Shown here: piece by piece, positions 50,820-53,406 of the stretch
Layout of the letters: every line of letters starts with the position of its first letter
Position numbering within the stretch: position 1 is the stretch's first letter
From: Candidatus Bathyarchaeota archaeon
GTDB taxonomy: Archaea; Thermoproteota; Bathyarchaeia; 40CM-2-53-6; RBG-13-38-9
Reading direction: 5' to 3'
Assembly (NCBI GenBank): GCA_963807605.1
Contig: CAWECG010000001.1
Location: 535,410-599,409 of the forward strand
DNA length: 64,000 nucleotides
Program-made: the position numbers and the translations under genes
The notes under the pieces: generated by a model
The model's database searches: none
What the model was told of the DNA's origin: nothing
The model's input: the letters and a program-made list of their open reading frames with translations, nothing else

Positions 50820-50969
50820 TTCGGCTTTGACTATGTTAAGATCATGGGCGATCAGGTTTGAAGATGACTACTGATGTATCAGAGCTACTTAGCCATATCT
50901 CGACGATCTAATGTAACTTAGCGATGCCGGAAGGAAGTTAGAACTCTGATGCCCTTCCTTTAGCGCGCG

Positions 50970-51476
50970 CTAATAGTCTCCAGTAGTGACGGGATAAACA
51001 AACGCAGATGTGGAATAATTTTGTTTTCTTGATGGGTCTCTGCAGAGATCTATGGCTTCCGAGATAATGTTAGGTAGGCTCTCTGGATTTCCTCTACCTA
51101 TTCCGGGACACACAGAGTTCGCATACGGATTCAAGTAGACGTAGTACTCCTCGCTTCCATAACAGAATCGCGCTTCCCTTGGGCTGAACGATTTTGGTTC
51201 TCTTGAAATTACGAGAGGCCACACTTTGCATGGAAGTGGTTTGAGGTTGAGCTGTTGCAGACCACATAATCCATACTCATTAAGGAAGATGCACCTTGAG
51301 CCATTCTTTCTTAGGTATATTCTGCCATAACTGTCTGATTCTACGGCCTCTGGCGCGAACTCAAGGATTCTCACATACTCGTATGTCCTGAGATACACTG
51401 TAAAGCCACGTTTGCAGCAGTTGCCACAACCCAGGCAACTCCAAGACTTCACCTTGCTCCAAGGCTTGAAGCCCAT
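50970..51476 (-). CDS. YkgJ/CxxCxxCC cysteine-cluster protein
   Basis: CLGCGNCC, CIFL, C..KPLPCKVWP. Confidence 0.85.
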   Translation of the reverse strand: MGFKPWSKVKSWSCLGCGNCCKRGFTVYLRTYEYVRILEFAPEAVESDSYGRIYLRKNGSRCIFLNEYGLCGLQQLNLKPLPCKVWPLVISREPKSFSPREARFCYGSEEYYVYLNPYANSVCPGIGRGNPESLPNIISEAIDLCRDPSRKQNYSTSAFVYPVTTGDY

Positions 51477-52036: not shown

Positions 52037-52082
52037 ACTCTAATCGTCTAGACTTTGCCTAATAATGCTTCGGATAGCGCGC

Positions 52083-53187
52083 TGGGTTGTCCCGATATTA
52101 GCGTTTTCATGTTAGGTTTGTCCAGTGTGTTATGCTTCTGGTTTTGGTGGGTTGTTTGGTGTTGTGTGAGGCTTCTATGGTGTAGAGTAGGCATAGTATG
52201 CAGTAGCTGGTGTGGATGGTGATGTTTTCTAAGCCTCTTGTTTTGTGATTGTTGAGGGTGAGGTGTTCTTTGAGTGATGCGAAGACGAGCTCTATGGTTG
52301 AGCGTTTCTTGTAGATGCGTTTGAGGTTTTCTGGGCCGTGTGTTTTGAAGTCGCTGGTTACTCTGAGGATGTTTTGTCTTTCAGGGTTCTGGTTGGCTGG
52401 GTAGGGTATCGCGGTCTTGATTTTGTGTCTTTTAGCGGTCTCTCTGAGTCTGTTGCTGGAGTATTGACTGTCAGCGGTTAGCTGTCGGATTCTGATTGCT
52501 GTGGTTTTAACTGTCATTTTGAGGAGTGGTATGCTGAGTTTCTTCTCGTTAGTGTTTGCTGGTGAGATGAGGAAGGCTAGGGGTGTCCCTGTGTCTGCAT
52601 CGACTGTGAGGTGTAGTTTGTAACCTAGGCTGTATGTGCGGTAGGCTCTTCCTACACGGGCTTCAGGGTCGCTGAAGCCTGTTCTATTGTTTATGTTGCG
52701 TCTGCTGTAGGCTTTGATGAAGGTAGCGTCCATAGCGACTATCCTGGGTTTTGCTATGTGTTTCTTCAGCAACTTCTTGACCTGTTTGTTTACTATGCGT
52801 CTTAGTCTTCTTGCGCCTAGCCGCTGGTTGAATCTTGAGAGTACCGTCCTACCGTACGCTGGCTCCTCATATCTTATGCCGCATATGTCACGTAGCCTCT
52901 CATCATGACATAAGTGGCGTTCAAGATCACGCAGACTGCTCATTCTCAGGTAGCGTCTGGCGAGGTGTGCCTTGAAGAGTCCTAAGGGGTTTCGTGGAGG
53001 TTTACCTGGACCGTCTTGATGATAGCAGCTAACAATGAGGCGTTCAACAAACGATAAATCCAGATTACTCAGCAGTGACTCCAGAGTCTCGTACCCTTCT
53101 ATCTGGAATCGCCTCCAAGTAGGAGGGTGTGGGGCTCAAACCATATGGATCTTTCCGTGTCAACTCAAAGAATATCGGGACAAGCCC
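52083..53187 (-). mobile_element. Insertion sequence (IS1182/IS5-like DDE)
   Basis: TIR GG(G/C)TTGTCCCGATATT at 52084-52099 and 53171-53186; flanks are themselves inverted repeats ending in GCGCGC. Confidence 0.88.
52107..53135 (-). CDS. DDE transposase (start region apparently frameshifted)
   Basis: GPGKPP N-terminal motif, MDATFI, GYKLH, TADSQY, YKKRSTIELVF; frame stays open upstream of the annotated M at 52943 to a TGA near 53137. Confidence 0.85.
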   Translation of the reverse strand, partial: APHPPTWRRFQIEGYETLESLLSNLDLSFVERLIVSCYHQDGPGKPPRNPLGLFKAHLARRYLRMSSLRDLERHLCHDERLRDICGIRYEEPAYGRTVLSRFNQRLGARRLRRIVNKQVKKLLKKHIAKPRIVAMDATFIKAYSRRNINNRTGFSDPEARVGRAYRTYSLGYKLHLTVDADTGTPLAFLISPANTNEKKLSIPLLKMTVKTTAIRIRQLTADSQYSSNRLRETAKRHKIKTAIPYPANQNPERQNILRVTSDFKTHGPENLKRIYKKRSTIELVFASLKEHLTLNNHKTRGLENITIHTSYCILCLLYTIEASHNTKQPTKTRSITHWTNLT

Positions 53188-53406
53188 GCGCGCTATCCGA
53201 ATCTCTAAGCCTTCTAGGTAGAATCTCTATTGCGGCCTGTTCCGGTTCCTCAATAGGAATTACAACTATCTTAAGGCTCAAATCTTGAGTCCGACCAGTA
53301 AGTAGAAAGACATAATGTCCAACAAATGTATTAACGCGCGCGCTATAGATCTCCTTGATAAAATAATCTGGTTCATCATTTGAAAGCTGCCTTTTGTGCA
53401 CGTTAA

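What the first reader, a model, noticed from the sequence alone, without database searches (positions are those of the whole stretch)
52069..53201. IS inserted in the centre of a palindrome that reconstructs to the (GC)n consensus
Seen: left flank TTCGGATAGCGCGC and right flank GCGCGCTATCCGAA are perfect inverted repeats outside the 16-17-bp TIR. Removing the IS and a 4-bp GCGC duplication gives TTCGGATAGCGCGCGCTATCCGAA, containing the same TAGCGCGCGCTA seen elsewhere. Established: some IS1182-family elements target palindromes. Inference: the IS either targets the motif or generates it (insertion at GCGC, duplication, excision and end-joining leaves GCGCGCGC; repeated cycles lengthen the run; adjacent deletions explain the truncated genes). 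Alternatively the outer palindrome belongs to a ~31-bp TIR.
Basis: partly seen in the sequence, partly recalled or inferred. Interest (0 to 1): 0.8.

Follow-up and report, generated by a model that had tools for sequence, protein, structure and literature searches.

The report
Jumping gene inside a GC palindrome
This is a young 1.1-kb insertion sequence of an uncultured Bathyarchaeia archaeon that lands, like every relative I could collect, in the middle of the short GCGCGCGC palindrome that litters this genome and duplicates four bases of it; the element uses the palindrome and does not appear to make it, and only the unusually long palindrome at this one copy remains unexplained.

Summary
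The flanks at 52069-52082 and 53188-53201 are perfect 14-nt inverted repeats outside a 17-bp terminal repeat.

- **The 31-bp-repeat alternative is refuted.** The genome holds 7 copies. All are flanked AGCGCGC|IS|GCGCGC(T in 6 of 7), but beyond TA the flanks are unrelated.
- **The element is 1105 bp (52083-53187).** It is an IS5/IS1182-like DDE insertion sequence (IS). A second family in the genome and about 50 complete relatives from metagenomes (39-90% protein identity, different terminal repeats) all abut GC runs.
- **The four bases at each end are a target-site duplication.** They are GCGC/GCGC almost everywhere. In two copies they are non-palindromic direct repeats (GAGC/GAGC, ACGC/ACGC). 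The run outside those four bases varies from 4 to 9 nt, so it is host DNA.
- **The element targets the motif and probably does not generate it.**
  - No copy sits in a bare GCGC.
  - (GC)6 footprints are rare.
  - Seven related genomes carry 16-63 motifs with no detectable transposase, while one with 8 transposase hits has 2 motifs.
- **The 24-bp perfect palindrome at this copy is unexplained.** None of 238 empty sites comes close. It is probably an optimal symmetric target.

Other agents of this scan reached the same targeting conclusion on other copies. No empty site for this copy was recovered.

The parts
52069..52076 (.). Outer left arm TTCGGATA of the 24-bp palindromic target (host DNA)
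   Evidence: Not found beside the five other copies that lack it. Related TTCNNATA half-sites occur at copies B1 and B2 and at two empty sites.
52077..52082 (.). Left half of the split GC run, GCGCGC; the last four bases (52079-52082) are one copy of the GCGC target-site duplication
   Evidence: Non-palindromic 4-bp direct repeats in L097 and L123 fix the duplication at 4 bp.
52083..52099 (+). 17-bp terminal inverted repeat at the transposase C-terminal end, TGGGTTGTCCCGATATT
   Evidence: The first base is specific to each subfamily, so it belongs to the element.
52107..53102 (-). Transposase reading frame (DUF772 + DDE_Tnp_1). The frame is open from 53135. ATA at 53102-53100 aligns with the Met of relatives. 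The first ATG is at 52943.
53065..53139 (-). Short TTG-started frame (LSPTPSYLEAI...) in another reading frame. It matches the N-terminus of a 75%-identical relative. One extra C at 53106 separates it from the transposase frame.
53171..53187 (-). 17-bp terminal inverted repeat at the transposase N-terminal end (GGGCTTGTCCCGATATT on the minus strand)
53188..53193 (.). Right half of the split GC run, GCGCGC; the first four bases (53188-53191) are the second copy of the duplication
53194..53201 (.). Outer right arm TATCCGAA of the palindromic target (host DNA)
53335..53343 (.). Neighbouring unoccupied GC run (aaCGCGCGCGCta), 133 bp from the element
50963..50970 (.). Unoccupied TAGCGCGCGCTA site at a gene end

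Best explanation
An active 1105-bp DDE insertion sequence of an undescribed IS5/IS1182-like clade of Bathyarchaeia inserted into a pre-existing host GC-run motif (consensus tA-GCGCGCGC-Ta). The staggered cut spans the central GCGC, so repair leaves GCGC on both sides, giving the flanks AGCGCGC|IS|GCGCGCT. The transposase recognises the alternating G/C run, not just GCGC, with a weaker preference for palindromic TA..TA flanks and, for this subfamily, TTCRRATA flanks. The site in this window carried the preferred flank on both sides, that is a 24-bp perfect palindrome. This is why the flanks look like an extension of the terminal repeat. What is shown: the copies, their flanks, the 4-bp direct repeats, and the variable outer run. 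What is inferred: the order of events (motif first, IS second), and that the 24-bp palindrome existed before the insertion.
For: - **Copies in the genome.** There are 7, in two subfamilies. Three copies of one subfamily are identical over 1105 bp; the three copies of the other differ from one another by 1-3 bases. All have GCGCGC on both sides and unrelated sequence further out.
- **A second family.** It has the terminal repeat NAGCYTCTTGCAATATT and 7 full copies. It abuts GC runs of 5, 6, 7 or 9 nt.
- **Relatives elsewhere.** Among about 50 complete relatives from metagenomes and other Bathyarchaeia genomes, with six different terminal-repeat types, the four bases next to each end are GCGC/GCGC. 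The exceptions are GAGC/GAGC (L097) and ACGC/ACGC (G000:C3:246508-247631). These are direct, not inverted, repeats, so they are a duplication and not part of the terminal repeat.
- **Short flanking runs.** Several copies have only 4 run bases on one side (L042, L064, L069).
- **Preference for long runs.** In this genome, 13 of 14 full copies lie in reconstructed runs of 7 nt or more. Only 17% of GCGC positions do, giving P about 1e-9.
- **The motif is independent of the IS.**
  - There are 106 AGCGCGCGCT sites against 14 IS copies, and no wider conserved context.
  - Seven family members carry 16-63 motifs and no transposase hit; G012 has 8 transposase hits and 2 motifs.
- **TTC..ATA half-sites.** These occur in 4 of 14 IS-1 flanks against 2 of 572 others. 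P is 3e-6, or 0.003 if counted conservatively.
Against: - No true empty site for this copy was recovered:
  - the metagenome pattern scan found nothing;
  - the flanks have no DNA or protein match in relatives;
- A palindromic duplication next to an inverted repeat is inherently ambiguous. The boundary therefore rests on two non-palindromic cases and on the variable run lengths.
- Four copies have one-base mismatches between the two 4-mers (L005, L007, L116, L122).
- Four elements have 8 run bases on both sides (L003, L049, L077, L119). That needs 12-nt targets or another history.
- Absence of transposase from short-read MAGs is weak evidence, because repeats assemble badly.
- A 24-bp perfect palindrome is improbable a priori, with about 0.04 expected in this genome.
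Confidence: 0.78

Rival explanations
1. The element makes the motif. It inserts at GCGC and duplicates it. Excision with retention of both copies leaves GCGCGCGC, and repeated cycles lengthen the run. A variant is that breaks left by excision are patched by the host with a GC run, which then becomes a new target.
For: - The run-length spectrum has a hump at 8 nt.
- A few long runs exist (12-15 nt, 6 in all), and four elements are flanked 8|8, as re-insertion into a footprint would give.
- A truncated copy at G000:C3:384655-384716 is bounded by TAGCGCGC and GCGCGCT.
Against: - None of more than 50 copies sits in a bare A-GCGC-T, which would be the required first step.
- Excision from the usual (GC)4 target should leave (GC)6, but only 3 pure (GC)6 runs exist against 147 pure (GC)4.
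- Motif counts do not follow IS counts across relatives.
- There are 106 exact motif sites against 14 copies.
Confidence: 0.1
2. The GC run, or the whole TTCGGATAGCGCGC, is part of the element (a 23-31-bp terminal repeat). The isolated motifs would then be scars of lost copies.
For: - GCGCGC is constant at all 14 ends of the 7 copies.
- IS relatives in the motif-poor genomes G012 and G014 still abut short CGCGC runs.
- A paralogue of one IS-2 flank lacks the run altogether.
Against: - The outer 8 nt are absent from five copies.
- The run length beside the ends varies from 4 to 9 nt.
- GAGC/GAGC and ACGC/ACGC are direct, not inverted, repeats.
- No consistent duplication exists outside the run. 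TA/TA fails in 3 of 7 copies that differ from their sisters by 0-3 bases.
Confidence: 0.05
3. The outer 8-nt arms arose after or during insertion. One route is templated repair that copied one flank across the element's inverted ends. Another is fold-back synthesis on a self-complementary GC-ended break. In that case the target was an ordinary 12-bp motif.
For: - The 24-bp palindrome is unique among 238 empty sites.
- A second IS copy, from a different subfamily (L069), also sits in a 24-nt near-palindrome with 8-nt arms. That makes 2 of 52 occupied sites against 0 of 238 empty ones, P = 0.03.
Against: - The two mismatches inside the terminal repeats were not converted.
- An empty site at G000:C5:32998 (CTTCACATAGCGCGCGCTATCCG) resembles the reconstructed target, and TTCAAATA half-sites exist without an IS. 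This favours a pre-existing sub-motif.
- No mechanism was tested.
Confidence: 0.2

Closest known systems
IS5 family, IS5 group (E. coli IS5)
   Same: About 1.1-1.2 kb, one transposase of about 330 aa with DUF772 + DDE_Tnp_1, a 16-17-bp terminal repeat that starts with G residues, and a 4-bp target duplication of a short palindromic tetramer. IS5 itself duplicates CTAG or YTAR; that point is from my own knowledge of ISfinder descriptions.
   Different: The target here is GCGC inside a long alternating G/C run. The score against the NCBIfam IS5 models is below their cut-offs (96.6 against 140). The host is archaeal.
IS1182 family (e.g. IS1272)
   Same: It is the best-scoring NCBIfam model (NF033551, 136.5 bits). 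Some members target palindromes or inverted repeats (PMC5678879, citing Siguier et al.).
   Different: The score is half the cut-off of 270. The protein is 331 aa against a 488-position model. IS1272 replaces the target inverted repeat and leaves no duplication (PMC5678879), whereas this element leaves a clean 4-bp duplication.
REP-targeting insertion sequences (IS1397, ISKpn1, IS621, ISPpu9/10, ISRm22, ISNm1106)
   Same: They insert specifically into a short, highly iterated intergenic palindrome of the host. REP targeting is reported in five IS families, including IS5 (PMC1525189).
   Different: The target here is a 10-12-bp alternating GC palindrome with little hairpin potential (-1 kcal/mol), not a 20-40-bp REP stem-loop. 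The specificity is shared by a whole clade down to about 40% protein identity. The host is an archaeon.

Membership tests
IS5 family | DDE transposase of the DDE_Tnp_1 type with an N-terminal DUF772 domain | tested here: met
   Pfam PF01609 at 93.1 bits and PF05598 at 36.1 bits, both above their cut-offs. D125, D211, E271 and the Y-R-E-K spacing are conserved in alignment A1.
IS5 family | Curated NCBIfam IS5 family models reach their cut-off | tested here: not met
   The best is NF033581 at 96.6 bits against a cut-off of 140.
IS5 family | Short terminal inverted repeats and a 4-bp target duplication (IS5 group) | tested here: met
   17-bp terminal repeats. 4-bp direct repeats flank about 50 copies, including the non-palindromic GAGC and ACGC.
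IS1182 family | Curated NCBIfam model NF033551 reaches its cut-off; transposase of about 450-550 aa | tested here: not met
   136.5 bits against a cut-off of 270, matched in three stretches. The protein is 331 aa. PF13751 (DDE_Tnp_1_6) scores 21.2 bits, below its cut-off of 25.1.
Host-repeat-targeting IS (REP-targeting type) | All or nearly all copies lie inside one iterated host palindrome that also occurs unoccupied in large numbers | tested here: met
   7 of 7 IS-1 copies and 7 of 7 IS-2 copies lie in GC runs. There are 106 unoccupied AGCGCGCGCT sites.
Host-repeat-targeting IS (REP-targeting type) | An empty site shows the intact repeat before insertion | tested here: inconclusive
   No allele without the element was found. 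Earlier notes of this scan report empty sites for other copies, which I did not check.

The most novel reading that the evidence does not exclude
The IS clade and the GC motif form a feedback loop. Earlier agents of this scan argue that the host writes GC runs at repaired breaks. The clade has specialised on these scars, and breaks made by its own excision are patched with new GC runs. The occasional long palindromes (this copy, L069) would then be fold-back products of self-complementary GC-ended breaks.
Probability: 0.12. Interest if true: 0.75.

Novelty: new member of a known kind. Interest (0 to 1): 0.4.

Why it matters
This is a clean archaeal example of a transposable element that uses a host's iterated palindrome as a landing pad. 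The specificity has been kept across a whole clade down to about 40% protein identity. The insertions are also useful markers. They show that the GC runs are host DNA that existed before the element arrived, which bears on the larger open question of what makes these runs in Bathyarchaeia. The element itself is ordinary in architecture.

Tried and rejected
- **Empty sites.**
  - A DNA search of the window flanks in 40 relatives matched only the IS.
  - The tRNA-side flank of copy A2 has an orthologue in G001 with neither motif nor IS, and the spacer cannot be aligned.
  - The G001 MITE locus has an orthologous gene pair in G000, but the spacer is unrelated.
  - An exact-pattern scan of metagenome contigs for the empty site found nothing.
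  - The neighbouring gene has no orthologue in five relatives.
  - Metagenome records cannot be searched by handle.
- **Paralogues as empty sites.** Two paralogous flanks (I2b, B2) end exactly at the GC run, so they do not span a site.
- **General flank sharing between motif sites.** Shared 7-mers are at the chance level (about 11 pairs expected, about 12 seen), so I dropped template switching between motif sites as a general process.
- **Hairpin or cruciform recognition as the general rule.** Ordinary 12-bp sites fold at only -1 kcal/mol, although the 24-nt site folds at -9.2 with a GCGC loop.
- **Resemblance of the outer arm to the TCCCGATA part of the terminal repeat.** It is 6 of 8 at one offset, which I judged not significant.

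Full report
**What is there.**
- TTCGGATAGCGCGC (52069-52082) and GCGCGCTATCCGAA (53188-53201) are perfect reverse complements.
- They bracket the 17-bp terminal repeats TGGGTTGTCCCGATATT (52083-52099) and AATATCGGGACAAGCCC (53171-53187), which match at 15 of 17 positions.
- Between the repeats, on the minus strand, lies one open frame with DUF772 and DDE_Tnp_1 domains.
- The window is G000:C1:535410-599409 of a 2.65-Mb, 5-contig genome. Record titles of its relatives name them Bathyarchaeia.

**Copies and the 31-bp alternative.**
- BLAST against the genome finds 7 full copies in two subfamilies that differ at 88-91 of 1105 positions.
- Three copies of one subfamily are identical; the fourth differs from them by 2 bases. 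The three copies of the other subfamily differ from one another by 1-3 bases. Transposition was therefore very recent.
- All 14 ends abut GCGCGC, preceded by A at 7 of 7 left ends and followed by T at 6 of 7 right ends.
- Beyond (T)A the flanks are unrelated, except for the cases noted below under "The outer palindrome".
- The base between the run and GGG is constant within a subfamily and differs between the two ends. It therefore belongs to the element, which is 1105 bp (52083-53187).

**Is the GC run target or terminus?** A palindromic duplication next to an inverted repeat cannot be resolved from one copy, so I collected more.
- A second family in the same genome (terminal repeat NAGCYTCTTGCAATATT, 7 full copies, about 40% protein identity to the first) abuts runs of 5, 6, 7 or 9 nt.
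- One scan of species genomes and one of metagenome contigs gave 90 loci.
- In about 50 complete elements, with six terminal-repeat types that align to one 17-nt frame, the four bases touching each end are GCGC/GCGC.
- Two cases are informative because they are not palindromic:
  - L097 has GAGC on both sides.
  - The copy at G000:C3:246508-247631 has ACGC on both sides.
- Those two cases are direct repeats. As parts of an inverted repeat they would have to read GAGC...GCTC.
- Several copies have only four run bases on one side (L042, L064, L069).
- So the element ends where I place it, the duplication is 4 bp, and everything outside it is host DNA.
- Four copies have one-base mismatches between the two 4-mers (L005, L007, L116, L122).
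- Four elements have eight run bases on each side (L003, L049, L077, L119). I cannot explain these beyond 12-nt targets or re-insertion.

**Targeting.** If any GCGC would do, only 17% of insertions should fall in runs of 7 nt or more. In this genome 13 of 14 do (P about 1e-9). Reconstructed targets are mostly (GC)4 with A..T flanks, which is the host motif.

**The motif without the element.**
- GCGCGCGC occurs 298 times, against 7-25 for other all-G/C octamers.
- Its logo is tA-GCGCGCGC-Ta, with no wider conservation.
- Across 15 other members of the same family, AGCGCGCGCT counts range from 0 to 119.
- Seven of them have 16-63 copies and no hit to the transposase profile. G012 has 8 transposase hits and 2 motifs.
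- MAGs lose repeats, so this is supportive and not decisive.
- The excision-footprint model also predicts first-step insertions in bare GCGC (none seen) and many (GC)6 runs (3 pure ones against 147 pure (GC)4).
- I conclude that the element exploits the motif and does not make it.
- What makes the motif is outside this finding. Earlier agents of this scan argue for a break-repair patch; I did not test that.

**The outer palindrome.**
- The reconstructed 24-bp perfect palindrome is exceptional. Pure (GC)4 sites extend by at most 4 nt.
- None of 238 empty even runs of 8 nt or more scores above 4 of 6 on positions 3-8 beyond the run.
- One metagenomic copy of another subfamily (L069) sits in a 24-nt near-palindrome with 8-nt arms. 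That makes 2 of 52 occupied sites against 0 of 238 empty ones (P = 0.03).
- Half-sites of the form TTCNNATA next to the run occur at both sides of this copy, at copies B1 and B2, and at two empty sites. One of the empty sites is a 60-bp paralogue of the B2 flank. The other, G000:C5:32998, resembles the reconstructed target.
- They are enriched beside IS-1 (P = 3e-6, or 0.003 if counted conservatively).
- B1 and B2 are identical elements, but their shared flank differs by indels. The flank similarity therefore predates the insertions.
- My best reading is an extended, symmetric target preference, with this site the optimum.
- Later symmetrisation by templated repair remains possible (about 0.2).
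- As single-stranded DNA the 24-mer folds into a 10-bp stem with a GCGC loop (-9.2 kcal/mol). Ordinary sites barely fold (-1), so structure cannot be the general signal.

**Family.**
- Pfam domains, size, terminal repeats and the 4-bp duplication are those of the IS5 group.
- NCBIfam scores are highest for IS1182 (136.5 bits, cut-off 270), then IS5_4 (96.6 bits, cut-off 140). Neither reaches its cut-off.
- Sources that name the homologues call them IS5 family transposase, transposase or hypothetical protein.
- REP-targeting by ISs of five families, including IS5, is documented (PMC1525189).
- IS1272 of the IS1182 family targets inverted repeats but leaves no duplication (PMC5678879).
- This is a new group with a new target within a known kind of element.

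**Earlier notes of this scan.** Other copies of this IS in this genome and a related IS in another genome were given the same reading, including reported empty sites. My data agree, but I did not check their empty sites.

Noticed in passing
window 53100-53139 (minus strand): The transposase frame has no ATG, GTG or TTG before residue 85. The codon that aligns with the Met of relatives is ATA (53102-53100). A TTG-started frame upstream (LSPTPSYLEAI) matches the N-terminus of a 75%-identical relative (P0004: MSLAPSYLEAIQIEGYE), and one extra C at 53106 puts it out of frame. ATTCCAG is conserved in both subfamilies and in the relatives examined (L001, L036, L041). This suggests a non-AUG start or a +1 shift that keeps expression low.
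   Followed up: partly
G000:C1:343581-344706, C1:359522-360646, C1:381542-382667, C3:246508-247631, C3:1079172-1080296, C4:41602-42726, C5:37846-38971: A second IS family (about 1126 bp, terminal repeat NAGCYTCTTGCAATATT, 348-aa transposase about 40% identical to IS-1) has the same GC-run target and the same 4-bp duplication.
   Followed up: yes
G000:C3:255955-256014 and C3:256771-256830: A 60-bp direct duplication 815 bp apart ends exactly at a GC run in both copies. It contains TGTGTGTGC...GCGCGCACACACA, which looks like a GC run decayed by C-to-T transitions. The second copy carries IS-1 copy B2.
   Followed up: partly
G000:C3:384655-384716: A truncated IS-1 or MITE remnant: about 45 nt of internal sequence plus the right terminal repeat, bounded by TAGCGCGC on the left and GCGCGCT on the right. 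The left terminal repeat is missing.
   Followed up: no
L021:1329-1541 (G001, same genus): A 213-bp MITE with IS-1 terminal repeats, flanked GAGTAGCGCGC|...|GCGCGCTAGG. The orthologous spacer in G000 (C4:613346-613747) has neither the MITE nor the motif.
   Followed up: partly
L005, L007, L060 flanks: Three unrelated copies have (T)GCACGC next to an end where GCGCGC is expected. G-to-A or C-to-T transitions in the run could reflect deamination of methylated GCGC.
   Followed up: no
window 53202-53334: The 133 bp between the element and the next GC run (53335-53343) read on the minus strand as the tail of a protein (...KIVVIPIEEPEQAAIEILPRRLRDSD) with no start. It looks like a gene fragment bounded by two GC runs.
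   Followed up: no
G000:C3:149500-149800 and C3:329950-330250: Another repeat ends in AGCCTCTTGCTAAAATGGCTAAAAA next to GCGCGC. Its end resembles the terminal repeats of this IS clade. I did not translate or classify the sequence next to it.
   Followed up: no
L017:2627-3200 (G000:C3:1083311 onward): Copy A2 lies 12 bp from what looks like the 3' end of a tRNA gene (TGGTGGACCGGGCGGGATTTGAACCC on the complementary strand). ARAGORN did not call it, perhaps because of an intron. The gene is conserved in five relatives.
   Followed up: partly
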